64,000 nucleotides of DNA from Blasia pusilla (lineage: Eukaryota), in assembly GCA_050084515.1 (NCBI GenBank), contig CM114271.1, forward strand, positions 28,458,001-28,522,000, given 5' to 3'. The translations under genes and the position numbers were made by a program. Numbering within the stretch: position 1 is the stretch's first letter; every line of letters begins with the position of its first letter. This document shows, piece by piece, positions 16,401 through 46,820 of the stretch. The notes below the pieces were generated by a model, which worked only from the letters and a program-made list of their open reading frames with translations, was not told the origin of the DNA and ran no database searches.

Positions 16401-16524
16401 TAATGGGCTTTTGCGGTGGGCTCAGGTTGTGGGAGACGCCGACGCTAGAGGCCCACTTAGTAGTAGTCATAGCTCTCTTGTTGTTGCTGATATTGTATTT
16501 GCTGTTGGTGAGTTTCGTCGTTAG
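13405..16524 (+). mobile_element. CRE-clade-like non-LTR retrotransposon (C2H2 zinc finger, RT, CCHC, restriction-like endonuclease), disrupted
   Basis: CPCCPKFFTRSGIRNHLAAKH zinc finger; RT motifs GGIRLIAIGE, DVENAFNSVSR, RQGDPLGGALF, LADD, LRVLGVPLG; C-terminal CEC...HLARC, RIATHDAVRD, RADL...ADV, K..Y and FIPLAIEMYG RLE motifs. Several in-frame stops and a frameshift near 14570. Confidence 0.9.
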
Positions 16525-23965: not shown

Positions 23966-26276
23966 TAAAGATATGGCATGGCAGGGGAATTGTCATTGTG
24001 CACATTAGAAATATACAGCGTGAAGTAGAGCTCTATCACCAAGTAACACCTAATTCAAAATTAGCCAGATTTTTTCATAAATTTCATGATTTAAGACAAT
24101 TTTCATATCCATATTTTATGTGATGTGTCCTTTTTAAAGGCACAACGGCAAAGAAAGCAATGTCAATGTGTAGTTTTGGAAACTTGTTGACATGGCTTCC
24201 TTTGGAAAGCTGACAAGTTCATTTTTGTTTAACATAGTCTTATAAGTAGGAAAAATGGTTTTAGAAAGAAAATACATCCAAGAGTACACTTATTTACTCG
24301 CATTTCATCCAGGGCAGTTAACTTTGTTAGTTTTGCAGTGGAGGATAGATTACATGCTTGAGTAACAGGTTGGTACTTCATGAGAAATCATCCTGCAAGG
24401 AGAGTAGAAGTGAGGTTCAGATCTGACCTAAACGCTTTTCCTCCCTTCGAAGTTCCCTGTCATCCCTGATTATAATTGTGCTAGGCGGGTTATGTGATGC
24501 CTTACCTTTGTGGGCAAATCAACCATATCAATGACATAACCGGTCTGGAGTTGTGGCGCAGCATTTCCTGGTAAGTAGGTTTTAGCACTGCTGCTTAGTT
24601 GATCCACCATACCCAAGATCTGTATGTAATCAGATGGGCACGTTAATGGAAGCAGGAGAGCCAAGTTAGTTGAGTTTCAACAATGCGGGTGGACCAGACT
24701 TGGAATGATCTTAACCTAGACTAGCATGTAACTTTTATCGTGAGTCGATCCATCAAGTCCATCTTAATATTAGATCAAGTCATGCATCTCAATTCTATCT
24801 TGTCCTAATTTATGGTAGTGGAATTAAGTTTTCCAATCTTCTTCTTGGGGTATGGCCTTCTCCAGTTTCTTGGAAGGTGGTTAATTATTCACAAGTTTTT
24901 TCAACTGACTTATTAGATTTGTAAGTGATCAACTAACTAAAGGAACTTAGAAGACATGCTAAAGAAGGTCAACAATTCTTGGCCTCTCCATATCTATCTG
25001 AACATGGAGCTTCCCCTACTTGGGAGTATTAATTATTCACATACTAGTAGATACTTGCTTAAAAGAAATAGATACATCTCACATCAATAAGCACACCATC
25101 ACCTGAAAGGGGTTATGCAACCATTCCCCTTATTGGTGTTTTGGTGTAGGTAATCTTGTCAAAGGTAACATGCATAATTTTGGAGTAAGTTCAGGAGATC
25201 AAGTGTTCACTTGCCCCATTGTCAGCTACCCACTTGCAATGCATGCCTATCTATGGATAATGATCATCTAAAATACCTAACGCACATTTGGGACATAATC
25301 ATTATCCTCGAGGAATCATATCTAAAGACAGTGACAAGCACATCATATGTTACCCTAATGAACAACCTTCGCAAAAATAGACATGCATACTTAATATAAT
25401 GAAATGTATCAATTCTTGCACAATGTCCATTGTCTTGAACCCTCATATATTTCAAAGTGCCACAATGTTGAGCAATAGGTGCGTTCTCAAATATCTTAGG
25501 CCTGTATGTTCGAAAAAGCTTTGCCTAATGAGAACACATCTTTATCCACACATCTAGTTTGCATGGTTGTACAAAAACATACAAGTTTGTTTAAAAGACG
25601 GACAAATAGAGACAAGTTTGGACATATCAACGAACATAGATTATAAGTGGTGGGGCCCACACTTATAATTCATGGTGGAAAGTAGGCCAAGAGCAAGTGG
25701 GGCAACAAGGGGGAGGAAGATGGGATGAAGGGAGGATGAAACGGGAAAATATGGAACACGTAGGCAAGTGGGAGGAAAAAGAAAGAAGGGGAAGTTGAGG
25801 TCCCATGGAGAAGTCCTTTCATAGGCCAGACATAAGTCCACGGACTTGGACATGTCCGTAGACATGAATTTTTTTCACATACAACCTTACTAGTTTAATG
25901 GGATTGATAACCTTTGCTACATCCCGCCAAATTTTCTTAGGAGAATTAAGCACTCGCCCATATAATAGAAAATAACATAAATGGAGGCCAATGATGGTTG
26001 ATGACTCAATCGATAACCATGATAGATGTAGGTTCTAATCTTCCAAATGCCCCTAATTCAAGGCATACTTGAATAAACTAATCTTCATGACCATTTGCTC
26101 CACCAATCCACGGACTTCACGATGATCCCGAGGTAAATGGATTGGCGCAACGAGATTGAATCCTACAACAAGCCAAGTGGATGGTCAAATGCTTTCGACG
26201 AAGTGGATTGGATTGCTTGGATAGCTTCCATATCAAGGGACTAGGATACTGCACTTGGATATTTTCGGAACATAAT

Positions 26277-26632
26277 TGGAGGTCAAAATCTTGTGGGGGC
26301 CATATCTTTCTAGTAGAGTGTCATGCTAAGCTGAAATTTTTAGGAAACGTGAATGTTGAGTAGACGCCAAGCCCTCCAAATTCAAGCCAAACCGAGTTAT
26401 AGCGAAGAAGTTGTGTGACATCTGAGATTCAACTCTTCTAAATTTAAGGATCGGAGGTCAGAATCTTGCGAAGGCCATATCTTTGTGGTGGAGTGTCATC
26501 TCAAGCTGAAATTTTCATGAACAGGGAAGGTTAGGAGGCGCCCTAGCCCTACAAATTTAAAACCAAAATGAATTACACAGAAGAAGTTGTGTGACATTTG
26601 AGACTTTTCTCTTCTGCATTTGAGGATTGGAG
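26277..26632. repeat. About two tandem copies of a 175-176 bp unit
   Basis: The GGAGG(TCA.AATCTT) anchor recurs at 26281, 26456 and 26632. Homologous to 42764-43075. Confidence 0.8.
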
Positions 26633-26639
26633 GCCATGC

Positions 26640-27621: not shown

Positions 27622-28676
27622 TATTATGCGTATACACATCACTACACAACATACATTTTTGTCACCGAACATACACACAAATACAAACGATCCCCTGCTA
27701 ACTCATGGCATCCAACCATCAACGTGATAAGTACCAAAAATATCTCCCATCGCCCACTAGTTGGTGATTAGGTCCCTCAAACTCCATATAACCATATATC
27801 CCTACCTACCATAACATGCATCTTTAGGATGCTAAGAGCAAAAAGGCATGGTGCTCATGAGCCCCCATCATTAATCGCCTTCTTGTCATCCATATCACAG
27901 ACACAAGTCTAAATCTATAACTACATACTCTATGTACATCTGGGACACATCCATCGTCCGCGATGAACACTAGTGAGAAGTGACGTTAGAGAAGCTATAT
28001 GCCACCCTCTCGAACATCCATCACAGACTAGCATAGTGGTTGCATCACGGGCAGAACTACAAAACATACAGTGCAATCTTGCAAGAACCATTTCTAAGCT
28101 CGAATTAATTGTATTGTCAATGTTAGGAAGGTGATATAGGGCACATTTACGCATATGGTCTTTCCAAACCATACCATGATGTCCCTCCAATAAAAGAAAA
28201 CCAGATGGCAAAACATCACGCACTCTCAAGATAGTGCGCCATGCAATCACATCCAACGTCGTGGATGCCATTTGCTACAAGTAGACATAGTCCCTTATGA
28301 AACCTCTGGATAGTAGGTTGATAACCACCTCCTTGAATAGTTGCATGCCTCAAAGTATCCCGATGCTGCGCAATTGCCAAGTTCTCAAATGCCATGGGCA
28401 TTTCTGTCTGAAACAACTCAACCCTCTAAGAACATGCTTGCATCCATACATTAGGGTCATCAAGATTCAGCACCTCACCAACATCTTAACAAATGGTCGG
28501 AGGTAAACTTGGCTCTCGGCCATAAAGCAACAAATATGGTGAGAAATATGCTAAGGATTCTTGCGTTAAGAATTTGTACCCATCGCCAACCACGAAAACT
28601 AAAGGTCCCAATCTCTTAGGTGACCTCTGTACAAGCCATACTTGCGTGAACCTCTCTCCAATGTATGCACAACCCT
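27622..28676 (-). mobile_element. Ty3/Gypsy PHD-family copy D: integrase C-terminus, PHD, PPT and a single B repeat
   Basis: MPMAFENLAIAQHRDTL...WKDH...CMFC...CDGCSRGWH...WMCPRC. The terminal ~128 bp (27622-27749) matches the B repeat at 46303-46428. Confidence 0.88.
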
Positions 28677-28853
28677 TATGATTTAGGTTGTTATATTAGG
28701 AATATCATTATTCATCGCTCAATTGCTCTAGGCATTGGCTAGGATAAGGCCTGGCCTCTAAGGTCTTTTCCTCTTTTGGTGTATTACTTGTAATGTGTTT
28801 TTTAGCCTTTTGACCTTTTTGGTCCCACGTGCTTGATTTATTTACCATTTACT
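28677..28853 (+). repeat. LINE 3' UTR/tail copy
   Basis: CCTTATGATTTAGGTTGTTATATTAGG...TTTACCATTTAC closely matches 11015-11190. Confidence 0.85.
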
Positions 28854-32952: not shown

Positions 32953-33532
32953 TGTCGTGCGAATCCACATCGTCATATAACATACATCATTGACATACCA
33001 TACTCACATACATACATAACATAGACGAGAGCATACACAAACACAAATGTACCACAACTGAAATCCGTGAAAGACCTACTATCATAAAACACATATAGAA
33101 TCACATACAATCCAGCCAAACCCACTCCACGATGGGAGAATCCAGGTCGAAGCTTGCGGGAACCACCATAGCCAAGAGCTCTACTCACTACCAAGGCTAA
33201 CTCCCAACGCAACACGCTCAACTCAAAGAACTAACTGTTCTTTGAGTACACTCCACACTATATCCTCCAACCTAAGGGCGGGCCCTATTGGAAAAGTCAT
33301 CCTCAACGGAGTAACCCCCAACCCTATGTTTGAAACGGCATCCCTACCTAGACACTACGGCCCTACATAAGGTATGGCCTATACTAGCACACTATACTCT
33401 ACGACATAATCCGTATGGTCATGACAACTGTCGTGCAAATCCTCATCGTCATACAATATACATCGCTGACATACCATACTCACATACATACATAACATAG
33501 ACGAGAGCATACACAAACACAAGTGTACCACA
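32953..33532 (-). repeat. Terminal repeat block of copy A: LTR 32953-33426 plus an extra 104-bp B copy at 33429-33532
   Basis: 32953-33056 and 33429-33532 are direct repeats. The LTR is bounded by TGTCGTG...CATGACA. A purine tract (plus-strand CGCCCCCCT) is at 33536. Confidence 0.85.
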
Positions 33533-35423
33533 ACTCGCCCCCCTAACTGGCGGTTAGGTCCCTCTAACTCCCAGGTAGCCCTATACATCTCCTACATGCT
33601 ATACACCTTCGTGGGAGCACAAATCAGAAGGTCGGATGCGAGGTTGCCCCATCGTTAGTTGCATATCTGTAATCCATATCATGCAAAGATCAAGTCATCT
33701 ATCCCTCCTAAGTACATCCAGGACAAACCCACCTTCCAGTAGGAACGACATCCACACGTGGAGTCAAACACATCATGTGCCAACCCCTAGAACACCAATC
33801 ACACTCCAACATACGGGCTACGTTACCAGCAGACCCACACAACATGCACCTCAAGCTAGCACGTATCATGGCTAATCTTGGGTCAACAGTACCATCCACA
33901 TTTGGAAGATGACATGGCGCACAATTACGCACATGCTCCTTCCAAACAACTCCGTCATGACCCTCCAAGATGAGAAGTCCAGAAGCTAACACTGCTCGCA
34001 CTCGTAAAATAGTGCGGCATGCCATCACATGCAACGTTGTTGGTACAATCTGCTGCAAATAGACATAGTCCCCCACATGGAACCTACAAATCGATGGTCG
34101 ATAATCTCCACCCTGAATGGTTGCATACCCCAAGGTATCCCTGTGTTGAGCAATGGCAAGATTCTCAAAGGCTGTTGGCATAACTCTCCGAAAGAGCTCT
34201 GCCCGCTGAGAACACACTCTCATCCACATCTTTGGGTCATCAAGGTTCACCACCTCACTAGACTCCTGATGAATTTCTGCTGGCAAGTCTAGATCTCGAA
34301 AATAATAGAAAATAAAAAAAGTCCGTATAACAGAAAATAAGGTGAGAAGGAAGCCAAGGATGCTTGGAAACTAAACCTATACCCCATGGCTAACCATGGC
34401 AACAGAATATCCCAGTCTCCAAGATGCCCCTTATGTAGGCCATACTGGCGCAATGCCCTCTTCACCTTCTGAACCACACGCTCAGCCAAACCATCCGCCT
34501 CTGGATGATCTCGAGACGTGGTTCGATGATCAATCAACGCCTTGTCACACAAGACCTGAAACTCACCCTGAAACTCTGTACCCCGTTTGGTCAACATCTC
34601 AGCTGGTGCACCAAAATAACTAAGCACTCTATCAAGAAACGCATACGCCGTTCCCTCACTTGCCTTGTCAGGTAATGCCACCAACTCAATCCACTTGGAG
34701 AAGTGCTCCACCATCACCAACACAAATCGATGATGTCGTACAATCAACGGTAACGGTCCTGCAAAGTCCACACTCCAACGGTAACCCAACCCCATAATAG
34801 GCAAGGGGTGTAACTGTGGTGTAGGGGCATTGAATGATGCCCTCACCTGGTGGCAAACCATACAACGTGACACCAACTGCTGCACTTGAGTATGCATGCC
34901 ACGCCACCAATACTCGCCAAGGAGTAAGCTATACGTACGCTTTACCCCAAAATGTCCCAACTCCTCATGGGCATGTCGCACAATGCGCTCTCTCTAAGCC
35001 AAATGCGGCACCACTCGTACTCTACCATCCTCCCACATACGGAGAATATGTGTTCCCTCCAATCGATACCTCCTAGCACGTTGAAGAACACGGTCTCGCT
35101 CCTTGGCACTCACTATGCCTCACACCCTATTGGTCCGTAGGAACTCCAACACCAACCCATAATCATGAATATCACGCTGATCCGTACCACCATCTCCAAC
35201 CTTAGGATCTGAAGGCTGGCCATCTTCCCTCTAACTAGAGTAAGATGTCATGTGGTCCTCCATATTAGAGTCCGCCCCTAACCAACATAAGAAGGCAAAT
35301 GCATGCCAACCTGGCACCATCTCCTCATCAACCTCGCCATGCCATCTAGCCCCAGTTGCATCCTCTTGGCTAGTACATGGTTTCCTACTCAACCCATCAG
35401 CATCAAGGTTGGCAACTCCAGGT
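32953..35423 (-). mobile_element. Ty3/Gypsy PHD-family copy A: end of RNase H, integrase, PHD and B-A-B terminus; interrupted at 35423 by copy B
   Basis: ORFs 34289-34981 (HAHEELGHFG, CMVC, WSVDFAGP, GLAER) and 33708-34286 (PHD). The RNase H motif PGVANLDADGLS abuts the copy B terminus. Confidence 0.93.
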
Positions 35424-36178
35424 TGTCGTGCGTATAGATATCGCTATACAACATACATCCCTGGTCACATCTACACCACACAACACCGATCTTCCCCACA
35501 CACGGGTCGATCCACACATGTACAAAAATAAACTTATACATATACATGGAGATCAAACAAAAAAGTAAAGAGTAGTAAAAATGGCACACCCGGCCTAAAA
35601 CTCCACTCCTCAATCTACATCGGCATATCAAGCCTCGTCCACCATGTGCTATCAAGGAATCTGGACGCTAGCACCCTAGTCCTATCCCACACACATACAA
35701 GAGAGGTGCTCCAACAACCCAACATGAGAAAGATGGCTTAAGAAAACCATCTTCCTCTCTTATATAGGGTTGGGAAGAGCCAAAAGGATCTTCCCCTAAA
35801 AATAGCCCTCCCCTTCGTAACCAGCTCGCATAGGTTACCAGGGGCGGGTGACTTGGTCAACAAGTCACTCGGCTAGGAAAGACCTCAACATGAAAGTTGT
35901 CAAAAATGACGTTCCTGACACAATGGACCTATCCTCAACCTCATCCGACACCATGGGAAAAACTTACACTCAAGATACTCTGATGGCTCCTACGCCCTAT
36001 CCACAATAGATCTCGGCCTATCGGCTACTCAGATGTGACAGCTGTTGTACGCATACATATCGCTACACAACATACATCGCTGATCACATGTACACCACAC
36101 AACACTGATCTTCCCCACACACGGGTCGATCCACACATGTACAAAAATCAACTCATACATATACATGGAGATCACACA
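35424..36178 (-). repeat. Terminal repeat block of copy B: LTR 35424-36040 plus an extra 136-bp B copy at 36043-36178
   Basis: 35424-35559 and 36043-36178 are direct repeats. The LTR reads TGTCACA...CACGACA on the minus strand, with a TATA-like CCTATATAAG at ~35757-35768. The PPT-like tract is at 36180-36190. Confidence 0.85.
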
Positions 36179-36256
36179 ACCGCCCCCCTAGTTGGCAGTT
36201 GGATCCCCCCAACTCCAGATAGAAAATATCACATCTCTCTGACATGACCTACTACC

Positions 36257-36397
36257 CTATACACATCTTGGACACATCCATCGTCACGTGGGAACCACAT
36301 CAAGAGGGGGGGTTAGACATGACATATGCCACCCTCGAGAACAACCATCACATACCAACATGGTGGCTGCATCCCTCGCAGATCCGCACAACATACA
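36257..36397 (-). other. PHD finger (Cys4-His-Cys3) at the integrase C-terminus
   Basis: CMLCGSARDAATMLVCDGCSRGWHMSCLTPPLDVVPT*RWMCPRC. Also present at ~33708-33850, ~27930-28075 and ~46560-46700. Confidence 0.93.
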
Positions 36398-36399
36398 CC

Positions 36400-37570
36400 T
36401 CAAGCCTGCAGGTACCATTGCCAAGCTCGGATCCACCGTCCCATCTACATTCGGAAGATGACATGGCGCACAGTTGCGCACATGATCCTTCCAGATCATG
36501 TGTTTCAGGCTTTGTGTGATCAGGCGCTGATAGATCACCGCAACACGTCCAGAGATCATCCTGAGGCGGATGGGTTGGCGGAGAGAGTGGTACAGACGGT
36601 GAAGAGAGGATTGCGCAAGTATGGCTTCCAGCAGGGACAGTTGAGGGAGTGAGACCTACAGTTGCCATGGTTGGCTATGGGTTATCGCTTTAGTCGGCAG
36701 GCATCCTTGGCGTCATTTTCACTGTACTTTTTGCTCTTTGGGAGAGAGCCACATTTACCTACAGCAATTTGAGGTGACATGGCGAAGGTGTTAGATCTTG
36801 ATGATCCAGATGTTTGGGTACAAGCATGTTCTCAGAGGGCAGAGGTTTATCGTAGAGTTATGCCTATGGCCTTTGAGAACTAAGCTATTTCCCAGCATAG
36901 AGATACATTGAGGTACGTGACCATTCGTGGAGGAGGTTATCGTCCAAGGATTAGGAGGTTTCATCCTGAAGATTACGTGGATGTCACTACAAGGCACCGC
37001 ACCCACGACGCTAGATGTCACTACAAGGCGCACGATCCTACGTGTGCGCAAGGTATTATCGACCGGAGTCCTCATGTTGGAGGGACGGGATGGTATGAAC
37101 TCGATACTCTGGTCAGTCAACACCTCCGCCGGTGCACCAAAGTGACTAAGCACACGATCTAGAAACGCATAAGTTGTTCCCTCGCTCGCCTTGTCTGGTA
37201 GTGCCACCAACTCTATCCACTTGGAGAAATGCTCCACCATGACCAACACGTACCTATGATGATGCCCCGTCAATTGCAAAGGTCCCGCAAAGTCTAAACT
37301 CCACCAATAACCTAAACCCATAATCGGCAAAGGATGTAACTGCGGAGTGGGAACATTGAAGGATGCTCGCACTCTCTCACATACCATACATCTAGCCACA
37401 AACTGTTGTATCCCAGTATGCATGCCGCGCCACCAATACTGAACTTGGAGTAAGCTGTAAGTACGCTTTACTCCAAAATGTCCCAACTCCTCAAGGGCAT
37501 GTCGCACTACACGTGCTCGTTGGGAAGGATGAGGTACCACTCGTATCCTACCATCTCCCCATACCCGCAA
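36400..37570 (-). pseudogene. Gypsy integrase (zinc-binding and DDE core), with 36500-37094 inverted
   Basis: HALEELGHFG...CMVC, WSLDFAGP and VLTDQ on the minus strand. The continuation (HPEADGLAERVV...) is on the plus strand at 36500-37094. Confidence 0.92.
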
Positions 37571-37899
37571 AATATGAGTCTCCTCCCACCTGAACCTCCT
37601 GGCTCTCTATAGGATCCGATCCCGCTCCCTAGCACTCACTGTACTCGCTATGATGCTAGTGCGCAAGAACTCCTCAACCTCCACGTCGTCATGGATATCA
37701 CGACCACCTGTCGCCTCCTCACTAACCTTTGGATCAAAAGACTCATCATCCAACCCCACCACTCGAGTCATCACCTGTGGCTGACCTGCCATAGTCAACC
37801 AAGAAAGATAGGCATATGCATGCCAACCGGGCACCATCTCCTCATCACTCTCTCCGTGCCATCGAGCTCTTGTGTCGTCTCTCTGACTCGGACATGGGT

Positions 37900-39333
37900 T
37901 ACGACTCAACCCATCCGCATCCTGGTTTAGCCGACCTGGCCTATGAACCACCTCAAACTCATATTCCTGTAGTAATAGAGCCCACCTGGCAAGCTTTCCC
38001 GTAAGCTTGTCGGACTCCATCAACCACCTCAACGGCTGATGATCAGTGATAAGTGTGAAAGGGTTTCCGAATAAATAGCACCTGAAATGTGCCACGGCCC
38101 ACACTACGGCCAAGCACTCTCCCTCGTAGGAGATGTACTTTGCCTCTGCAATGTTGTTCGATCGGCTCGCGTAGCCACAACGAACTCCCTCTCCTCATCA
38201 TCCCTCTGAGTAAGCACTGCTCCTAGACCCAACATGCTCCAATCCGTATGTAACTAGAATGGGCGACCCCTAACCGGTCTCTGTAAAATGGGTGAGGACG
38301 TCAACCTGTCCTTGAGCTCCTAAAATGCTCGCTCTAGATCATCTCCCCACAACCAAACCTGATCAAGTCTCATCAACAAGGTCAAAGACTTTATGATCGC
38401 ACTAAAACCCTTGACATATCGTCCATAGAAGTTCGCCAGTCCAAGAAATGCTTGGACTCGACTCACATCTGTAGGGCGTGGAATCTGCGCAATAGCCTCT
38501 ACCTTTGTCTGCTAAACGTCTAACCCACTTGGGTATATGATGTGTCCCAATTATTCAATCTGCTCTTGAAAGAATCTGCACTTGCCTGGATGTAACTTCA
38601 GTCCATGTAACTGCAATCGCCGAAACACCTCCTCCAAGTGTCGCTCATGCTCCTCAACCGTAGAACTGAAGATAAGAATATCATCTATGTAACATCGTAC
38701 AAAATCCAAGCCAGCCAGAATCCTATCCATCACTCTCTGAAACTCTGCAGGTGCGTTCTTCAACCCAAATGGTAAGAACCGCCACTAATACAAGCAATCT
38801 CTCCCGAACCGATCTATCCCCCAAAATGCTGTCCTCTTGTTGTCCTCCAACCTGATAGGAAGCTGATGATAGCCAACACGGAGATCTAAAGTACTGAAGA
38901 TCTTTGCATGCCCTACCGCATCAAAGATCTCTTCAGGAGAAGGCATGGCATATCGATTTGACCTCGTCTGTCAGTTGATAGGACGATAATCTCCACACAT
39001 CCGCCTATCCGTCCAATTGCCATACATATCCTTCTTCGCCGGCATGACTGTGGTAGATGCATACTCCCCATGTGATAACTCCACAAGTCCTGCCTCCAAC
39101 AAGTCCTGACTCTAGTTCTGAATCAAGGCTCGCTCCATATCAGAATACTTGTAGGATCGACGAAAGATCGGCGTATCGCTATCCAACTCAATCCGTATCC
39201 CTGGACCCTTCAGCGTACCCAAGTCTCTCATACTGAAGGCAAAACAACTGACATGCCTTCTCAGAAACCTATGAACTCGCCGTCGCTCTCCTCCTATCAA
39301 CTTGAGACCTATCATAGGTTCCCAAGTCTCCAT
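37900..39333 (-). pseudogene. Gypsy reverse transcriptase and RNase H
   Basis: RMCGDYRPIN, FSTLDLRVGYHQL, PFGLKNAPAEFQ, YIDDILIFS; RNase H TDWSMLGLGAVL, EGECLAVVWAV, TDHQPL, DADGLSR. Confidence 0.95.
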
Positions 39334-39639
39334 CGTGACCTCACTCGAAGAGAACGCAACCTCTGGCTTTGGTTGTATGTAGCAACCCTAGCCACCTCCG
39401 CAACAACCACCCCACTCTGACCTCCTACATCATGCTCCGCATCCGAAAAATGAACATGTGCTACTCCAGCAGGCTTCACACTCTCTGCTCAAATGACGTC
39501 CCAGGAAGTCCATGGGTGCCTATCTCTCCTCGTCTCGCCCCCAGCCAATGCCTGTACAGACCCTGTAGGCAATGGTCCAACTTGTGGAGGTTGACGTGAC
39601 GGCATGGATGACACTCGCATCCGTATCTGCTCAGCCATA

Positions 39640-40590
39640 CCTAGGCTGACTATCCATGTGAGACAGTTGAGGTCCATCGCCTGCCCCAACACCTATCTCT
39701 GGGATGCTTCAGTCATCCCTCGCACCGCCGTAGTATCGGTTGCGAACCCCATGGCGCGCTCGCACTCATTTGCTGTAGGCTCCTCCAATGCTCCGGTCAC
39801 CTCATCCCAAATCATGCCTGGCCCTCCCTAACAAAAGGCATGGGATGTTGGGAAGCTCACCAACGTAGGTAAGGCTGCCCTCAACTCCTCCACCCTATTG
39901 GCCATGGCCAACGGTGGTCTATCATCCCGTGTGACCACTTGAGATCGACGCCCTGAGCCCAAAATAGCATCCAGTGTGAGATGTGGTGCTCTTTGGACTC
40001 CATCGTATGCTCGATTCAGTTCCTCTGATAGTATCAGGTTCGTCCACCACAATCGTGGATGATAGGCACGTGATCCAACTCTCTCCGTATCTAATAACAC
40101 AGCAGGTCCCAACTATGACCTCACCTGATACACACTCGTCATCACACGTGCACGAGTGTCTCCCAACAATGGCACGTTCTCCAAGATGTACGTTGGAGAA
40201 TATGTCGGACTCTCCTGCAAGTGTCGTACTACTCGCAGTATCTCCCAAAACATCCCTGACCTCGGATCCTGCAATCCAAATCCTCGGCCAGCTGATGAAT
40301 GACCTTGACATGGCCATCCAGCAATCACCAAATAAATGGTGCCAACTCTATCCAGATCCTGTGCCCCCACCAAAGAGATGTCGGCGGGTAGTGTATGCTG
40401 ATATCCCCGTACTGCAGATACCGGAAACAACTCATGATACCTCTGGACCAATCTCGCCACGTGACGTAATGATACTCGCCGCGCGGTCTCATCTTTCTCC
40501 ACATAAAGGTACTTATGCACCTGTAAGCCCGCCTGCAATACTGCAGCTAATCCGGTGCTAATCCCTCCGAAGAGATCTAACACCCTAACA
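39640..40590 (-). pseudogene. DNA (cytosine-5)-methyltransferase catalytic domain, DNMT3-like, embedded in Gypsy pol
   Basis: Motifs in canonical order and one reading frame: I VLDLFGG, II VEKD, III ADI, IV AGWPCQG, V DPRSGMF, VI ILENV, VII LLD, VIII SRAYHPRLWWTN, IX ECERAMGF, X LGQAM. Three in-frame TAG stops. Confidence 0.93.
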
Positions 40591-40943
40591 CCCTCCTCTG
40601 GGCACTGCCACACAACGGGTGTGGTATTTAGTGTGGTCAACGTCTCCACTCCAAGAGCCCGATTGCCACGTGACTCTCGCTGCTCCGAGATAAAAGCATG
40701 ACTCCACGCCTGCCTCACGAAGTCGTCGACACTCCTTTGTAGCTCTCGAGTCGTACCCCACAATGGCGAAGAGGTCTCGCCAACATGGGAAGAGATACCC
40801 GCCATGGCCTGTCTCTCCGTGGGACTATCCACTATTGGGACATCCTCTGCATGTGCGTTCCCCTCCAAAAACTCTCTTGGCCAGCTAACACTACCTGTGA
40901 AAGCCGCCAACGTGGTCACAGACTCGCCTCGTAATCGACCACC

Positions 40944-42620
40944 TCATCCCGCAAATTGCACGGGTAACTGACTCATCCAGCCGTCACCTGACCGCCACCC
41001 TAGCCGATAAGCAACGGTCTCCTCCCAGAAGTCAAGGATGAATCCTAGGGGATATAACACTGTACTCCCCACCACCACATCGTACGACTCAGTTGGTGTC
41101 ATAATCGCACGTGTGCGCACCATAGCACTATCCATCTCATGCTCTGGTTGGACTCTGACAACTATCTTCTGTCGAGTCATATACTGCGTGGGTGACACGC
41201 CTCCAATCGAGGTCTGTATCTGGAAGGGACAAGGCTCAATGTCGGCCTTCCGTAACCCCAACGCTAAACACGCCGCCTTCCCTAACATCAAGGGTTGCAC
41301 TCCCGAATCAAGTAGGACGCGCTAGTGTCCCCGTCGGACTAACCAAGCAAAATACTCCAGCTTGGTAATCCAGTAACACTACTCTAGGTGTCACCACTGC
41401 TCGCTCGGTGCATCTCGCAGCACCTCGAGTTACCACTGCAGCTGCCTCAACCTGGGCTGCACTACACATAAACCCCATACTAGCGAGATCCTCACACGGG
41501 TCAGGGTAAGAGGTAGAAGTTGGAGTCACACTAGCTACTCGTAGCTCCGTGCCTTCCCTAAGCTGCATCATCGTCGTGGCAACAATCCTATGCTCCAACT
41601 GATCGATGCGTGAGAGAAGTGACGGCTGTGGTGCTCCTGCTCCATCTCCTCTGGCTGGTGGTGGTCCTCTACCACCACGTTGAGGAAGGACTCCCCAACC
41701 TCCCCCAGGACAACCGCCCCCAGGCCCTCAGCCTACCTCTGGACATGCCCCTCGGCAAAGGTCAAAACATCTATCCCTAGTGTGACCATATCTGTGGCAA
41801 TAGTCACACTGGTGCTGTGGTGGGGCCATCCTCTGTGGCTCCTGAGCAATCGGAGGCACTAGTGGTCCTCTCCCATGCTGTGGGCAGTCTTTCTGCCTAT
41901 GGGCCCCTCCATACGTCCAACAAGACCACATCGGTCCCTGTTGGGCAACATATGTAGGTATGCGTCGTTGCCTCATAGGCTCATGGTAACCGCCCTGCTC
42001 TTTGGGCACACCGACCCGCTTTCGTGGTACTGGTGCTCACTGTGGCATCTCTGGGGTCACCGTCGCTCGTGGACCGGTCGACTCTCGAGAAAATCCAGCG
42101 GTCACTACTTGCTCCTCACTCATGTTGAGCTCAATATGCTCAGACAACTCAAAGACCACCTTCAATGTGGGCTTCGCTATGTGAATGAGCACCACATCTC
42201 GGACTCTCCTTCGTAGTTCTCGGTCCAGAACCCCGTACCAATAAAGGACTGACTGCGCCTCAGTCACTCCATACGAAGCAATGATCAGCCTCCTCATGCG
42301 TGTGAATGCCTTTCTCAGACTCTCACCCGATCATCCCTGAAAATCTTGTAGACTCTTCAACTTGTCGGTACATACGCCCTGGTAGCTCTTCCCCAACTGT
42401 CGGAAGAACTCCACTTTGGGGCTGAAGCTGGGTGGCCCTCTACCACCAGAGGTCTCTGCCACATCGCCTCTCTCACTGCCCTCCTCTCCATCTAGTCGCC
42501 GGGCTGAGGGTGTGGGTCTCTCTCCTCCCACAATCCCATCATATGCCTCGCGACCACTAGTGGACACATACCCTGGACTCAATCTAGACTCCCTCTCACT
42601 GAGAGGTGTATTGTGTGACA
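40944..42620 (-). pseudogene. Gypsy gag (two zinc knuckles) and aspartic protease
   Basis: CWTYGGAHRQKDC and CDYCHRYGHTRDRC knuckles. Protease RVLLDSGVQPL (~41300-41325) and YDVVVG. Confidence 0.85.
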
Positions 42621-42763: not shown

Positions 42764-43075
42764 GGGATTGGAGCTCAAAATCTTGCGGAGGCTGTATCTT
42801 TGTGTCAGGTCATGATCTCAAGCTAAACTTTGCAGGAAAATTGGAAGTTGCTAAGGAGCATAACTCTTGGAAATTTCAAGTACAACCAACTTATAAAGAA
42901 GAAGTTGTGTGGTGTTGGAGATTTTCCTCTTGAAGATTTGAGGATTGGAGCTCATAATCTTGCGGAGGCGATATCTTTGTGTCGGATTGTGATCTCAAGC
43001 TGAAAATTTATAGGGAAGTTGGAAGTTTCCAAGACGTAAAATTTTTGAAAATTTCAAGCACAATAAACTTATACA
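42764..43075. repeat. About two copies of a 177-bp unit related to 26277-26632
   Basis: The GATTGGAGCTCA.AATCTTGCGGAGGC anchor recurs at ~42773 and ~42950. Shares ATCTTTG...TCTCAAGCT...GAAGAAGTTGTGTG with the 26.3 kb repeat. Confidence 0.8.
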
Positions 43076-43079
43076 GAGG

Positions 43080-44640
43080 TGATGACACAACTAAGAAAAT
43101 AAACAAATGGAAAATGTAAAGATTTGGATGATCTTTCAATTGAACTTTTGAAGTGGGGAGGAGATTCTATCAGACTGATCCTCACCAATGTTTTGGGTGA
43201 TGCTACTCTCTATGGTTTTCCTTCTACTTGGTTACTACATGAGATTATTCCTATTCACAAATCAGGAATGAAGGATTTTAAGACAAACTATTGCATTATC
43301 ATGGTGAGTAGTATTTTTGCCAAGTTGTTTGGGAAATTGGTGGAGTCAAAGTTGAGGGCATGGACGGAGTATTTCCAAAAGAGAGCACGAGTTCAAACTG
43401 GTTTTTGCCCAACATACAACACCATCGACCATATCTTGGCCTTACGTGTTCTATGGGAGAAATCTAAGGGCAATGGGAAAGCTTTGTTTTGTGGTTTCAT
43501 CGATTTCAAGAAAGCTTTCGATATAGCATCTCATAAGCTCTTGAGGGATCAGTTGCAACCCATAGGGGTTCCAAAAAATCTCCTAGCTGCCATGGCCACA
43601 TTGTACTATTCCATTTGGGCCAATATCAAAGATTCACAAACTCAAGAGATTTTGAGTACTACCGGAGTCATTCAAGGTTTTCCTCTCTCACCTACTCTCT
43701 TTGGAGTTTTTATAGCTGCTATCGAAAAGTGATTGGAGTAATGTGAAAGTGAAGGTATAAAGCTTGGAGACTTTGATATCAAAGATTTATTGTATGTAGA
43801 TGATATCATATTACTTGCACAGGATGCCATTAGTTTACAAAAATATCTTGATACTTTGGAAAGTTTTTGTTCCAAGAATCAGATGGAGGTTAGTATGGAG
43901 AAGTCTAAAGTCATTGTAGTGGGTACTAGATCCAAGTTCTTCTTAATTTTCAAAGGTCTATAATTAGAATAAGTGAAGAGTTATAAATATATAGGCATTT
44001 ATTTCTCTCATGACTATAGTTGGGCACTTTGCTTACAAAAGAGAGTAGAAGCAAGTTACAAAGCTCTATACTCACTTTTCAATTGGTGTAGAAAAGCTCA
44101 TCTTATATCATGGGATCTTAGGAAGTTCTTATCTAGGAGGTTAGCTCTCCTTATGGTCTTATAGGGGACCCAAGTTTAGGGCCCTACTTGGAAGAAGATA
44201 GGTTGGGAGCGCGTGGAGAGGGTGCAAAAGATCTTTCTACCAGAAGAATTGGGTGTAAGAAACCAAACTCCTTATGCTATTCTTCTTGTGGAAATATGTT
44301 TTCTTCTTCGAGAGGATGAAGTTATCTACTTGACCATTAATTATATCGTAAGGTTGAGATTCTTGATATTTCTCACCTCCCTCATCAAGTTTTGCGAGTC
44401 ACACGTTCCATAGGGTGGATTGCAGATGTGGTAACTTGGTCTTCAAAGTGGAATATGGTCAATCATGATTGGGACTTGAATCTGATAGCACTCTGCGAGC
44501 ATCTATAGAACATTTTCTCACATTATTTGGAGTAGTCCAAGCACAAAAATGGAGTATTATCAACTTCATGTTAATCCTATGCTTGTATATTGTGAATAAG
44601 GGTACCTACTTGCGGGATCTCCACCTTCGTACATCATATT
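43080..44640 (+). mobile_element. LINE reverse transcriptase fragment, disrupted
   Basis: IIPIHKSG, QTGFCP, FIDFKKAFD, GVIQGFPLSPTLF, LYVDDIILL, YKYIGI. Confidence 0.88.
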
Positions 44641-45657: not shown

Positions 45658-46820
45658 TGTCGTGCGCATACACATCGCTACACAACATACATCGTTGTCA
45701 CCAAACACACACAGAAACACACACGATCCCATGCTAACTCATGGCATCCAAACAACGAGACAAGAAGTACCAAAATATCTCCAATAAAATAAGATCCAAT
45801 CTTTCTCACAATACCATAATTCTCATATGTGTGCACTCTCACATGTCCCTTTCAATGTCAAACCAAACCCACTCTCCTAACGATAGGCTTGGGTTACACT
45901 CACAAGGCAAGGGACCATAGCTCTGCCGCCTCATGCTAAGAGGTTCAACAAAGAGAGAATGAGCTGTCAAGCTTTCTCTCCTTGAGGTATACTCGTCTCC
46001 TCCCTCAAGCTCTCTCCATGATAACCTATGCTCCCAAGTCACCTCATTGGCTCTTGACTTGATGTAGGAGCTTAAGGGCCACTTACCAAAAATATAAAGT
46101 GGACCATATACTCAAAATGGTACTTACCTAAGATAGTAAGTTCCTCAATATGGCTCCAAATGAGCCGAAACGAAGGGGAAATCTTCTCTCTCAGGTTTTC
46201 CGGGGCCTCAACAGGTCATCCTCAACCTCCTGAGCTTGTCCTCCACTACTTGAGAAGGAGCTCTACTAGATCTCACTGATTTATCCTAAAAGATATGACA
46301 GCTATCGTGCGCATACACATCGCTACTTAACATACATCACTGTCACCGAACACACACACAAATACGCACGATCCCATGCTAACTCATGGCATCCAAACAA
46401 CGAGACAAGAAGTACCAAAATATCTCCAATCGCCCCCTAGCTGGTGGTTAGGTCCCTCTAACTAAGAGCAAGAAGGCCGGGTGCTTATGTGGTCCCATCG
46501 TTAGTCGTCTTCTTGTCATCCATGTCATAGATACAAGTCAGAATGTAGAACTACCTACGCTATGTACATTTGGGACACATCCATCGTCCCTGAGGTATCC
46601 TAGTGAGAGGTAGCGTCAAACATGCCGTATGTCATCCTCTCGAACATCCATCACAGACTAGCATAGTGGCTCCACCACCAGCGAATTGACACAACATACA
46701 CCTCAAGCTGGTAGGAACTACTGCTAAGTTTGGATCAACTGTACCATCAATGTTTGGAAGATGACATGGCGCACAGTTATGCACATGGTCCTTCCAAACC
46801 ATACCATCGCGTCCCTCTGA
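45658..46820 (-). mobile_element. Ty3/Gypsy PHD-family copy C: PHD end, PPT, B (46303-46428) and LTR (45658-46300)
   Basis: EGRDGMVWKDHVHNCAPCHLP...CMLC...CDGCSRG. 126-bp direct repeats at 45658-45783 and 46303-46428. Confidence 0.9.

What the first reader, a model, noticed from the sequence alone, without database searches (positions are those of the whole stretch)
36257..36397. PHD finger in place of a chromodomain at the integrase tail: a possible reader-writer pair with the MTase
Seen: all four copies end pol with a Cys4-His-Cys3 PHD finger (CxxC...MLVCDGCSRGWH..CL.PPL..VP.G.W.CP.C; one Cys is lost in copy D). Known: chromoviruses carry a chromodomain at this position for chromatin targeting, and a PHD finger is known in the Chlamydomonas REM1 element. 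This pattern resembles PHD fingers that bind unmethylated H3K4 (CHD4/AIRE/BHC80 type), and animal DNMT3 couples its catalytic domain to an H3K4me0-reading ADD domain. Inference: the element may combine a histone reader that steers integration away from active promoters with a DNA-methylation writer, a self-contained epigenetic module.
Basis: partly seen in the sequence, partly recalled or inferred. Interest (0 to 1): 0.8.

Follow-up and report, generated by a model that had tools for sequence, protein, structure and literature searches.

The report
PHD-tailed integrase of a methyltransferase retrotransposon
The flagged stretch is a real but broken PHD zinc finger at the very end of the integrase of a decayed plant retrotransposon that also carries a DNMT3-type DNA methyltransferase, and in public data these two modules travel together across green algae and bryophytes.

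Summary
On the minus strand, four copies end pol with a C4HC3 PHD finger one codon before the stop, and all four match Pfam PF00628 over its full length.

The flagged copy is dead. Its finger has an in-frame TGA, its integrase has a 599-bp inversion, and its methyltransferase has four stops. Only this copy keeps enough upstream sequence to show the methyltransferase.

The element belongs to the known 'Gypsy-DNMT3' family, first described in Klebsormidium in 2018. It has gag-protease-DNMT3, then RT-RNaseH-integrase-PHD, and DIRS-like split direct repeats.

The finger was under purifying selection: dN/dS is 0.05-0.26 in five of six pairs. By sequence and predicted fold it sits among readers of the unmodified H3 tail.

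The two modules co-occur in public data:
- 17 of 18 assessable metagenome loci found through the PHD tail carry the DNMT.
- 41 of 43 assessable polyproteins found through the DNMT carry the PHD tail.
- The pairing appears in two different gene orders.
- Exceptions exist (Closterium, P0263, P0172, P0210).

In intact relatives the DNMT and the PHD lie in different reading frames separated by a TAG. A direct ADD-like coupling is therefore unlikely, and integration tethering is the better reading. Histone binding is untested.

The parts
36260..36397 (-). PHD finger of copy C (the finding). It has all 8 C4HC3 ligands and is the last 46 codons of pol.
   Evidence: Pfam PF00628 E 9.9e-12, positions 1-47 of 47, with TGA read as X.
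36284..36286 (-). In-frame TGA inside the copy C finger, at the position that is Gly in relatives.
36257..36259 (-). Natural stop codon of pol in copy C, one residue after the last Cys.
36398..36498 (-). Conserved linker (VWKDHVRNCAPCHLPNVDGTVDP...) between the integrase C-terminal barrel and the PHD.
   Evidence: A151, C153, H154 and L155 are invariant in 16 sequences.
36499..37097 (+). Inverted segment of copy C. It holds the second half of the integrase core and the C-terminal barrel, and now reads on the plus strand.
   Evidence: Self-blastn; tblastn. Reads and contigs from relatives join 36493 to 37097 on opposite strands, which is the un-inverted form.
37098..37702 (-). Integrase zinc-binding domain and first part of the rve core of copy C.
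   Evidence: Pfam Integrase_H2C2 E 1e-14, rve E 2.8e-10; tblastn.
37565..39339 (-). Reverse transcriptase and RNase H of copy C, with frameshifts.
   Evidence: Pfam RVT_1 E 1.1e-20, RT_RNaseH E 2.7e-24; tblastn.
39495..40943 (-). DNMT3-like cytosine methyltransferase of copy C. Motifs I (LFGGIS), IV (PCQ), VI (ENV), VIII, IX and X are recognisable. The 39495-41321 reading frame has 4 in-frame stops.
   Evidence: The Marchantia homologue P0076 hits only DNMT3A/B/C in the PDB.
40947..41321 (-). Aspartic protease region (LLDSGV) upstream of the DNMT in the same frame.
   Evidence: translation; homology to P0076 residues 634 onward.
41404..42462 (-). gag-like region of copy C.
   Evidence: tblastn with Marchantia P0076 residues 122-452, 44% identity.
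35424..36179 (-). 3' split direct repeats of copy C. The B repeat is 36043-36179, the A-type spacer is 35561-36042, and the second B repeat is 35424-35560 (91% identical over 137 bp).
   Evidence: The full A...B-A-B layout is seen in loci L014, L049 and L080.
33711..35419 (-). Copy B, a 5'-truncated fragment: RNase H end, integrase and an intact-looking PHD (33711-33848). Its 3' repeats are 33429-33535 and 32953-33059.
27933..28706 (-). Copy A, an integrase tail plus a PHD (27933-28070) with the fifth-ligand Cys replaced by Ser. One B repeat lies at 27627-27750.
46563..46817 (-). Copy D, linker plus PHD (46563-46700) with TGA in place of Trp. Its 3' repeats are 46305-46430 and 45660-45785.

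Best explanation
The flagged stretch is the C-terminal PHD zinc finger of the integrase of a Ty3/Gypsy-type retrotransposon of the 'Gypsy-DNMT3' family. The host is probably a liverwort.

An intact element of this family encodes ORF1 (gag, protease, DNMT3-like cytosine methyltransferase). An in-frame TAG follows, probably read through. Then comes ORF2 (reverse transcriptase, RNase H, integrase, PHD). Split direct repeats (A...B-A-B) bound the element.

Shown:
- The finger is real and was kept by purifying selection.
- It belongs by sequence and predicted fold to the PHD fingers without a methyl-lysine cage that bind the unmodified H3 N-terminus.
- It is co-inherited with the DNMT3 module across chlorophyte and streptophyte elements.

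Inferred: as part of mature integrase, the finger tethers the integration complex to nucleosomes whose H3 tail is unmodified at K4. This biases insertion away from H3K4me3-marked promoters, the role a chromodomain plays in chromoviruses. The DNMT3, made from the upstream ORF, acts as a separate protein.

The copy in the window is a dead relic. It has a stop in the finger, an inverted integrase segment and stops in the DNMT.
For: Real finger:
- 4 sites against 0.02 expected.
- PF00628 matches full length in 4 of 4 copies.
- AlphaFold2 model of the copy B tail: pLDDT 82-90 over the finger.
- The model superposes at 0.5-1.4 A over 44-53 residues on the ATXR5, DPF2/3, BAZ2A/B, UHRF1 and MOZ/MORF fingers.

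Selection:
- dN/dS is 0.05-0.26 in 5 of 6 copy pairs and 0.58 in the sixth.
- pS is 0.55-0.74 in those five pairs and 0.32 in the sixth (A-D).
- Repeats within an element are 91-94% identical, while copies are only 69-75% identical. The copies therefore diverged while active.

Class:
- None of the 60 PDB sequence hits listed (78 matched) is an ING, BPTF or TAF3-type finger. The best are KMT2C/D, CHD4, DPF2/3, ATXR5, PHF12, KDM5A/B, BAZ2A/B, PHF21A, UHRF1 and AIRE.
- The residue two before the zinc-binding His is Gly (G196, at least 90% conserved). H3K4me3 readers have their cage Trp there; this criterion is recalled.

Position: the finger follows directly after the SH3-like barrel of the integrase tail.

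Family:
- tblastn order is gag-PR-DNMT-RT-RH-IN-PHD.
- Homology to Klebsormidium KFL_009030040 (P0073) and to many Marchantia, Calypogeia, Sphagnum and Closterium proteins.
- B-A-B repeats match the layout described for KnitGypsy-Dnmt3 (PMC5890265, section 9 and the legends of Figs 1e and 4c, read).

ORF layout:
- L034 ORF1 is 1369 aa and ORF2 is 1047 aa, both without stops, separated by TAG CAG TTA. L036 has TAG CAA TCA.
- Seven further loci have a stop at one shared place: TAG in six, TAA in one. The next codons are CAA CCC in six and TAA CCC in the near-duplicate pair L029/L030, where a second stop follows.

Co-occurrence:
- 17 of 18 loci with an assessable 5' part have the DNMT. The 18th is a 5'-truncated copy that also lacks gag and PR.
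- 41 of 43 DNMT-found polyproteins with at least 280 aa after the integrase core have the PHD tail.
Against: - No binding, zinc or insertion-site data exist. The specificity class rests on similarity, and similar fingers (DPF, UHRF1, CHD4) read different combinations of marks.
- The acidic residue that contacts K4 in AIRE and BHC80 just before the first Cys (recalled) is not present here (LRC...).
- The loop-1 acidic pair common in relatives (consensus 'DD') is reduced to one Asp or none in the window's copies.
- The four copies sit in a transposon-rich stretch. This fits heterochromatin targeting but equally fits passive accumulation.
- PHD-less DNMT elements exist: Closterium P0197, P0263, and P0172/P0210. 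The finger is therefore dispensable in some lineages.
- Protease processing that would free integrase-PHD from the rest is assumed from other Ty3/Gypsy elements, not shown.
Confidence: 0.6

Rival explanations
1. Strict reader-writer module. The PHD guides or gates the element's own DNMT3, as the ADD domain does in animal DNMT3. It would act either in the unprocessed read-through polyprotein or through an integrase-DNMT complex, so that methylation is laid down where H3K4 is unmethylated.
For: - The pairing persists across two gene orders (PR-DNMT-RT... and RT-RH-DNMT-IN-PHD), and the DNMT modules are clearly homologous.
- Counts: 17 of 18 and 41 of 43.
- On an RT+RNaseH tree the DNMT-before-RT elements form one group (SH-aLRT 99) beside the others, with PHD on both sides.
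- Internal-deletion copies place the DNMT next to the integrase tail and PHD: L003, L008/L010 and the Marchantia gene model P0004.
- The nearest solved fingers read H3K4me0, as ADD does.
Against: - DNMT and PHD lie in different ORFs separated by a stop in the window's closest relatives.
- They are more than 1000 residues apart, with protease, RT, RNase H and integrase between them.
- Co-inheritance in one clade can be simple descent.
- Closterium P0197, P0263, P0172 and P0210 keep the DNMT without the PHD.
- The deletion copies carry stops, with no ORF longer than 233 aa across the junction.
Confidence: 0.15
2. The finger is not an H3K4me0 reader. It would bind another histone state, a host chromatin protein, nucleic acid or integrase itself, serving for multimerisation or nuclear import.
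For: - PHD-like fingers have many ligands.
- Key acidic contacts of the AIRE/BHC80 type are not conserved here.
- The barrel-plus-PHD tail resembles Tudor-PHD cassettes of PHF1/MTF2 and UHRF1 in Foldseek (ranks 1-11). The rmsd is 12-16 A, so only the order of domains is alike.
Against: - The finger alone superposes within 0.5-1.4 A on fingers solved with H3 tails, at 36-47% identity.
- Conserved features include CD.C, G-[WY]-H, L.P.L..[VI]P.G.W.CP.C.
- No non-histone PHD family ranks above them.
Confidence: 0.2
3. It is a chance Cys/His pattern, or an exon of a host chromatin gene unrelated to the retrotransposon.
For: None found. The region is full of decayed repeats.
Against: - Four copies stand at the same place after integrase homology.
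- Pfam E is down to 9e-12.
- 69 of 74 homologues of the integrase tail carry PF00628.
- 503 relatives were found in one metagenome scan.
Confidence: 0.01

Closest known systems
KnitGypsy-Dnmt3 / 'Gypsy-DNMT3' of Klebsormidium nitens (de Mendoza et al. 2018, PMC5890265; section 9, legends and term passages read)
   Same: - Ty3/Gypsy pol with a DNMT3-like domain before RT.
- DIRS-like A...B-A-B repeats.
- Direct homology to a Klebsormidium protein of this kind (P0073, 30-48% identity by segment).
   Different: - The host is a liverwort-like genome.
- The word 'PHD' does not occur in the held text of that paper, and its figures and supplements could not be seen.
- The Klebsormidium proteins in hand end before, or in an unclear stretch at, the PHD position.
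- In the window's closest relatives an in-frame TAG splits gag-PR-DNMT from RT-RH-IN-PHD.
Chromoviruses (Ty3/Gypsy with a C-terminal chromodomain on integrase)
   Same: A small histone-reader fold is fused to the very end of integrase, after the C-terminal barrel. The presumed role is integration targeting (passages in PMC6673714 and 10.1101/2021.11.30.470311, read).
   Different: No Chromo family was found in any window ORF. The likely ligand is the unmodified H3 tail rather than H3K9me.
PHD-bearing retrotransposons of Chlamydomonas (REM1, Gypsy-7a_cRei) and others
   Same: A PHD finger acts as an accessory domain of an LTR retrotransposon in the green lineage. See the PMC9940879 legend and passages in PMC8557442 and PMC6673714, all read.
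   Different: No methyltransferase is mentioned for those elements in the passages read. The REM1 paper itself is not held, so its domain order is recalled only.
'EpiLTRs' (bioRxiv 10.64898/2026.05.21.726589; sections 7, 8 and 11 passages read)
   Same: Single LTR retrotransposons that combine a histone reader with DNA methyltransferase(s). The idea of an 'epigenetic toolkit' in one element is in print.
   Different: - Those elements carry a chromodomain plus an adenine MTase plus a DNMT4-related DNMT.
- That preprint names Gypsy-DNMT3 as a separate acquisition.
Animal DNMT3A/3B/3L ADD domain
   Same: A cysteine-rich H3K4me0-reading module associated with a DNMT3-type catalytic domain (recalled knowledge). 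The catalytic homology was confirmed here.
   Different: ADD is adjacent to the catalytic domain in one polypeptide and gates it allosterically. Here the finger is a plain 45-residue PHD on integrase, in another ORF.

Membership tests
PHD finger (Pfam PF00628) | C4HC3 ligand pattern with canonical spacing | tested here: met
   Copies B, C and D have all 8 ligands. Copy A has Ser at the fifth ligand.
PHD finger (Pfam PF00628) | Profile score above the curated cut-off | tested here: met
   34-45 bits against a cut-off of 24, full-length match, in 4 of 4 copies.
PHD finger (Pfam PF00628) | PHD fold | tested here: met
   Model pLDDT is 82-90 over residues 175-219. The rmsd to solved fingers is 0.5-1.4 A. 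This is a prediction, not a structure.
PHD finger (Pfam PF00628) | Binds two zinc ions | not testable with these tools
   Needs protein chemistry.
H3K4me0 / unmodified-H3-tail reading PHD fingers (BHC80, AIRE, CHD4, KDM5 PHD1, BAZ2, DPF PHD2, ATXR5) | No aromatic methyl-lysine cage (no Trp two residues before the zinc His) | tested here: met
   G-W-H or G-Y-H, with Gly at least 90% conserved in 16 sequences. The criterion itself is recalled, not taken from a call.
H3K4me0 / unmodified-H3-tail reading PHD fingers (BHC80, AIRE, CHD4, KDM5 PHD1, BAZ2, DPF PHD2, ATXR5) | Nearest solved relatives are of this class | tested here: met
   (none of the 60 listed hits is an ING, BPTF or TAF3 finger). 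(entries titled with unmodified H3 peptides).
H3K4me0 / unmodified-H3-tail reading PHD fingers (BHC80, AIRE, CHD4, KDM5 PHD1, BAZ2, DPF PHD2, ATXR5) | Acidic residues contacting H3 R2 and K4 | tested here: inconclusive
   The Asp of CD.C is invariant (D191). There is no acidic residue before the first Cys, and the loop-1 acidic pair is weak in the window's copies.
H3K4me0 / unmodified-H3-tail reading PHD fingers (BHC80, AIRE, CHD4, KDM5 PHD1, BAZ2, DPF PHD2, ATXR5) | Binding to H3 peptides that is lost on K4 methylation | not testable with these tools
A peptide assay is needed.
Gypsy-DNMT3 retrotransposons | Ty3/Gypsy RT-RNaseH-integrase with a DNMT3-like domain in the polyprotein | tested here: met
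Gypsy-DNMT3 retrotransposons | Split direct repeats A-coding-B-A-B | tested here: met
   3' B-A-B is seen in copies B, C and D. The full set is seen in L014, L049 and L080. The 5' A repeat of copy C was not found in the window.
Gypsy-DNMT3 retrotransposons | Homology to the Klebsormidium type element | tested here: met
   P0073 aligns from DNMT to the integrase tail. It groups with the bryophyte elements at SH-aLRT 99.
Chromovirus | Chromodomain at the integrase C-terminus | tested here: not met
   No Chromo family was found in Pfam scans of the window ORFs or of 28 related proteins. A PHD stands there instead.
EpiLTR (chromodomain + adenine MTase + DNMT) | Adenine methyltransferase and chromodomain in the same element | tested here: not met
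   Neither was found in copy C or in the intact relative L034.
ADD-coupled DNMT3 (animal type) | Reader adjacent to the catalytic domain in one polypeptide | tested here: not met
   The two are separated by RT, RNase H and integrase, and in L034/L036 and seven more loci by a stop codon.

The most novel reading that the evidence does not exclude
The PHD tail and the DNMT3 module form a co-adapted pair that a Viridiplantae-wide clade of Gypsy elements has kept for a very long time, even while the DNMT moved from between RNase H and integrase to before RT. The integrase finger would place new copies in H3K4-unmethylated chromatin. The element's own DNMT3, made in excess from ORF1 through a leaky TAG, would methylate there. 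The element would thus write its own chromatin state rather than only being a target of host silencing.
Probability: 0.2. Interest if true: 0.75.

Novelty: new member of a known kind. Interest (0 to 1): 0.45.

Why it matters
Retrotransposons that carry DNA methyltransferases are a recent and poorly understood discovery.

If the DNMT3-bearing Gypsy family almost always also carries a histone-tail reader on its integrase, there is a concrete handle on how these elements choose and mark chromatin. The same holds if this pairing spans chlorophytes to bryophytes in two gene orders. The question can be tested in Marchantia, where chromatin maps and genetics exist.

The window's copy itself is only a fossil. 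The value lies in the family-wide pattern it points to. That pattern did not appear in the papers I could search. The figures and supplements of the 2018 paper could not be seen and may already show the finger.

Tried and rejected
- No whole genome is held for the window, so a genome-wide count in the host was impossible. Public metagenome loci and protein collections were used instead.
- Earlier-findings look-up: nothing on this genome.
- A PHD-H3 complex prediction was not run. No histone H3 gene exists in the 753 kb of session DNA, and memory sequences are not accepted.
- Sequencing runs: no RNA holder is listed.
- Laying two DNA and two RNA runs gave mostly short pieces 95-99% alike from related copies. 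57-60% of the laid RNA runs on into unlike sequence. This shows relatives, and an un-inverted form of the 36493/37097 junction. It does not show expression of this locus or confirm the TGA at 36284-36286.
- The REM1 paper (PMC1291216) is not held.
- The 5' A-repeat of copy C was not found. The sequence upstream of gag runs into another RT-bearing element at 43103-43960.
- The plus-strand region 12-17 kb shares a 330-bp repeat piece with copy C, but has no protein homology to the family at E 1e-2.
- Pfam's precomputed labels undercount the DNMT: 4 of 74. blastp with the DNMT domains found it in 22 of 74.
- No outgroup RT was available, so the tree is unrooted. It is a quick search with SH-aLRT only. 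Six rows drawn in its 'II_PHD' group are proteins that end before the PHD position.
- The Klebsormidium tail (P0069) ends in an unclear Cys-rich stretch, so presence of a PHD there is unresolved.
Full report
**1. The observation**

The finding's coordinates hold a PHD finger, but on the minus strand. Reading 36499 down to 36260 gives MIWKDHVRNCAPCHLPNVDGTVDPSLAMVPAGLRCMLCGSARDAATMLVCDGCSRGWHMSCLTPPLDVVPT*RWMCPRCV, followed by a stop.

A degenerate DNA pattern for the core CDGC..GWH finds four sites in the window, all on the minus strand, against 0.02 expected from shuffles. The four copies are labelled here by coordinate:

- A: 27933-28070.
- B: 33711-33848.
- C: 36260-36397, the flagged copy.
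- D: 46563-46700.

Each copy ends pol one residue after the last Cys. All four match Pfam PF00628 over positions 1-47 of 47. E runs from 9e-12 to 2.5e-8, and scores are 34-45 bits against a cut-off of 24. C and D were read with TGA as X.

The defects are as follows:

- A has Ser for the fifth ligand Cys.
- C has TGA in place of a conserved Gly.
- D has TGA in place of the Trp before the zinc His.
- B alone is unbroken.

**2. What surrounds it**

Pfam scans of all stop-to-stop frames of at least 70 aa and tblastn with homologues give the following order on the minus strand for copy C:

| Module | Coordinates |
|---|---|
| gag | 42462-41404 |
| Aspartic protease (LLDSGV) | from 41321 |
| C5 cytosine methyltransferase | to 39495 |
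| RT | 39339-38173 |
| RNase H | to 37565 |
| Integrase zinc domain and first half of the core | 37702-37098 |
| Rest of the integrase, reading on the plus strand | 36499-37097 |
| Linker and PHD, minus strand again | 36498-36260 |

The 599-bp segment 36499-37097 is therefore inverted in this copy relative to copies A and B.

The methyltransferase frame keeps motifs I, IV (PCQ), VI (ENV), VIII, IX and X, but has four in-frame stops. Copy C is a fossil.

Copies A, B and D are 5'-truncated fragments. B reaches back to the end of RNase H, A only to the integrase tail, and D only to the linker. Within the window, the co-occurrence of PHD and methyltransferase therefore rests on one copy.

Downstream of the PHD, copies B, C and D each have a pair of 107-137 bp direct repeats, 91-94% identical, separated by 370-520 bp.

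**3. What family it is**

The integrase-tail+PHD frame of copy B finds 74 longer proteins. The best are from Marchantia polymorpha (72%, 69%) and Calypogeia fissa (67%). Of the 74, 69 carry PF00628.

The methyltransferase frame finds 40 proteins. Most are Marchantia gene models at about 58% identity, with others from Calypogeia, Sphagnum and Closterium. The host is thus probably a liverwort. No genome is held for it.

A Marchantia homologue of the methyltransferase hits only DNMT3A/B/C among solved structures, in 25 of 25 hits.

A Klebsormidium nitens protein (P0073) aligns from the DNMT through RT, RNase H and integrase. This is the 'KnitGypsy-Dnmt3' kind of element described by de Mendoza et al. 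2018. In section 9 and the legends of PMC5890265, which I read, it is a Gypsy-type pol with a Dnmt3 domain and a repeat layout 'the same as that of a DIRS retrotransposon', A-coding-B-A-B. The full A...B-A-B layout is present in related loci L014, L049 and L080. The window's copies show the 3' B-A-B part.

**4. Intact relatives and ORF layout**

A metagenome scan with an alignment of integrase tails found 503 relatives. The best 80 were kept as loci.

L034 is intact. ORF1 (1369 aa: gag, protease, DNMT3) and ORF2 (1047 aa: RT, RNase H, integrase, PHD) have no internal stops. They lie in one frame, separated by a single TAG.

The context of that stop is TAG CAG TTA in L034 and TAG CAA TCA in L036. 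Seven more diverged loci have a stop at one shared place: TAG in six and TAA in one. The next codons are CAA CCC in six. In the near-duplicate pair L029/L030 they are TAA CCC, so a second stop follows. UAG-CAR-YYA is the tobamovirus-type read-through context (recalled), so programmed read-through is likely. A third, more distant group (L049, L059, L079/L080 and others) has no stop there.

The consequence is that the DNMT3 is made with gag and protease, while the PHD is made only at the end of the read-through product.

**5. Is the finger functional for the element?**

Copies differ by 25-31% in DNA, but the two B repeats of one element differ by only 6-9%. Most of the divergence therefore arose while the lineages were active.

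Over the last 80 codons, non-synonymous differences are few (pN 0.13-0.26). Synonymous sites are nearly saturated in five of six pairs (pS 0.55-0.74; 0.32 for A-D). dN/dS is 0.05-0.26 in those five pairs and 0.58 in the closest pair, A-D. Values for the finger alone are similar. The finger was kept by selection.

**6. What kind of PHD**

Among solved structures, the best sequence matches are:

- KMT2C and KMT2D fingers
- CHD4
- DPF2/3 PHD2
- ATXR5
- PHF12
- KDM5A/B PHD1
- WSTF
- BAZ2A/B
- PHF21A (BHC80)
- UHRF1
- AIRE

None of the 60 listed hits (78 matched) is an ING, BPTF or TAF3-type finger.

An AlphaFold2 model of the 220-aa tail of copy B used a 16-sequence alignment. Mean pLDDT is 67, rising to 81-88 over an SH3-like barrel (residues about 100-152) and 82-90 over the finger.

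Foldseek superposes the finger at 0.5-1.4 A over 44-53 residues, with 36-47% identity, on ATXR5, DPF3b/DPF2, BAZ2A/B, UHRF1 and MOZ/MORF fingers. Several of these entries are titled as complexes with unmodified H3.

The residue two before the zinc His is a conserved Gly. H3K4me3 readers have their cage Trp at that position; this criterion is recalled.

It is no proof of binding, and the acidic K4 contact of AIRE/BHC80 before the first Cys is absent.

**7. Do PHD and methyltransferase travel together?**

Forward test, loci found through the PHD tail. Of the 80 loci, 18 keep the 5' end of RT and at least 1.3 kb upstream. Of these, 17 have the DNMT between protease and RT. The 18th (L018) is a truncated copy whose homology to a full element starts 57 bp before ORF2, and it lacks gag and protease too. 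Some loci are near-duplicates (L029/L030, L079/L080). Even so, at least four lineages with 39-76% identity to the query are represented.

Among the 74 proteins, blastp finds a DNMT region in 22:

- 10 have the order RT-RNaseH-DNMT-integrase-PHD.
- 9 are DNMT-integrase-PHD fragments, including Volvox reticuliferus and Cymbomonas.
- 2 have a DNMT piece and the PHD tail but no integrase core: the Marchantia models P0002 and P0004.
- 1 (Klebsormidium) has the DNMT-before-RT order.

A further 16 are ORF2-like proteins that start at RT. The remaining 36 are too short to assess. Pfam's precomputed labels showed the DNMT in only 4 of the 74.

Reverse test, proteins found through the DNMT. The DNMT domain of L034 finds 2906 cluster representatives at E up to 1e-3 and 276 at E up to 1e-30. 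Of the best 150, 60 contain an integrase core. Of the 43 with at least 280 aa after that core, 41 have the PHD tail. All 43 are of the RT-RNaseH-DNMT-integrase order. A named example is 'pol' of Scenedesmus sp. PABB004.

Exceptions:

- P0172 and P0210 lack the finger.
- Closterium sp. NIES-54 P0197 has the DNMT-before-RT order and lacks the finger.
- The unnamed P0263 has the same order and also lacks the finger.
- Klebsormidium is unresolved.

The DNMT domains of both orders align throughout, including a stretch between motifs I and IV. On an unrooted RT+RNaseH tree of 56 rows, the DNMT-before-RT elements form one group (SH-aLRT 99), with PHD-bearing members on both sides of that branch. The simplest reading has three steps: an old PHD-tailed, DNMT3-bearing Gypsy lineage of green plants, one relocation of the DNMT, and a few losses of the finger.

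**8. Mechanism**

Shown: the finger's position, fold class, selection and co-inheritance.

Inferred: the finger sits on integrase exactly where chromoviruses carry their chromodomain, so integration tethering is the most economical function. The likely ligand is the unmodified H3 tail, which would keep insertions out of H3K4me3-marked promoters.

A direct ADD-like control of the DNMT3 is less likely. The two modules are in different ORFs, far apart, and presumably separated by protease processing. It is not excluded, because they could meet in the read-through precursor or in a complex.

Internal-deletion copies put the DNMT next to the integrase tail and PHD (L003, L008/L010, and the Marchantia gene model P0004). 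All of these carry stops.

**9. Comparison with print**

- PHD fingers in retrotransposons are known. Passages read: PMC6673714, PMC8557442, the PMC9940879 legend, and 10.1101/2021.11.30.470311 section 10.
- DNMT-bearing Gypsy elements are known (PMC5890265).
- A reader-plus-writer 'toolkit' in one LTR element is in print for chromodomain + adenine MTase + DNMT ('EpiLTRs', 10.64898/2026.05.21.726589, passages read). That preprint also names 'streptophytes (Gypsy-DNMT3)'.

I found no text linking a PHD tail to Gypsy-DNMT3:

- 'PHD' occurs 0 times in the held text of PMC5890265.
- 'Gypsy-DNMT3' occurs in only two held papers.
- Combined-term searches gave nothing closer.

Figures and supplements could not be seen, and most subscription journals are not held.

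**10. Read data**

Short contigs of two DNA runs and raw reads of two RNA runs of 'organism A' were laid on the element. Most pieces are 95-99% alike, and most RNA reads fit only in part. They therefore come from related copies. Some join 36493 to 37097 on opposite strands, which is the un-inverted arrangement. The RNA reads lie mainly with the first mate on the plus strand over RT, RNase H and integrase. This suggests that relatives of the family are transcribed in one direction. It says nothing firm about this locus.

**Verdict**

- The element is a new (liverwort) member of a known family.
- The family-wide PHD-DNMT3 pairing is a modestly new and testable point.

Noticed in passing
L034:5083-5085, L036:4661-4663, and the same place in L011, L014, L019, L023, L029, L030, L031: A single in-frame stop separates ORF1 (gag-PR-DNMT3) from ORF2 (RT-RH-IN-PHD). 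The context is TAG CAG TTA in L034 and TAG CAA TCA in L036. In the other seven loci it is TAG or TAA followed by CAA CCC, except L029/L030, where a second stop (TAA) follows. This looks like a programmed read-through site of the UAG-CAR-YYA type (recalled). A more distant group of loci has no stop there.
   Followed up: partly
window 36499-37097: A 599-bp inversion inside the integrase of copy C. Contigs and RNA reads from related copies show the un-inverted junction (36493 joined to 37097 on opposite strands).
   Followed up: yes
L003:9107-10699; L008:4143-6351; L010:8446-10654; protein P0004 (Marchantia Mp_7g09570): Internal-deletion derivatives have lost RT, RNase H and most of the integrase, but keep gag-PR-DNMT3 joined to the integrase tail and PHD. 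There are at least two different junctions. All carry stops. One is annotated as a Marchantia gene.
   Followed up: partly
proteins P0046, P0172/P0274, P0210/P0275 (C-terminal 250-330 aa): In the RT-RH-DNMT-IN order, many polyproteins extend about 330 aa beyond the PHD position. The extension has a Tudor-like motif (weak Pfam PTM_DIR17_Tudor hit in P0172). It also has a domain with DPFSGTG / DPWSGDG and SPYF / SPWF motifs that looks like an amino-methyltransferase. No Pfam family matched it.
   Followed up: no
proteins P0027, P0030, P0033, P0056, P0060, P0063, P0065: In many DNMT modules of the RT-RH-DNMT-IN order, the Pro of catalytic motif IV (PC) is replaced by Glu or Ala, while the Cys is kept.
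   Followed up: no
window 12006-12375 (+): A fragment 66-69% identical to the A/B terminal repeats of copy C, in the opposite orientation. It lies at the edge of a GC-rich region (12-17 kb) with a weak RVT_1 hit (14569-15354) and a 388-aa ORF (15358-16521) without any Pfam match. There is no protein homology to the Gypsy-DNMT3 family.
   Followed up: partly
window 42765-43077 and 26275-26636: A unit of about 180 bp is repeated in tandem just upstream of copy C's gag and again 1.3 kb downstream of copy A (70-81% identical). Its role is unknown.
   Followed up: no
window 25378-26130 (-): A fifth, more distant integrase fragment (32-39% identical to family members), with no PHD seen.
   Followed up: no
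window 43103-43960 (+), 50850-52544 (-), 8266-8721 (-): Other mobile-element remains: an RVT_1-bearing element abutting the 5' side of copy C, a Copia-type element (RVT_2, SH3_retrovirus, gag_pre-integrs), and a zf-C17orf113 frame. The whole window is transposon debris.
   Followed up: no
L068:3000-5029, L070:650-2679, L072:7953-9982, L075:2879-4908 (all minus): In one sub-family, an inverted DNMT/protease fragment starts only about 25 bp after the PHD stop codon. This may be a head-to-head arrangement, or the same locus sampled several times.
   Followed up: no
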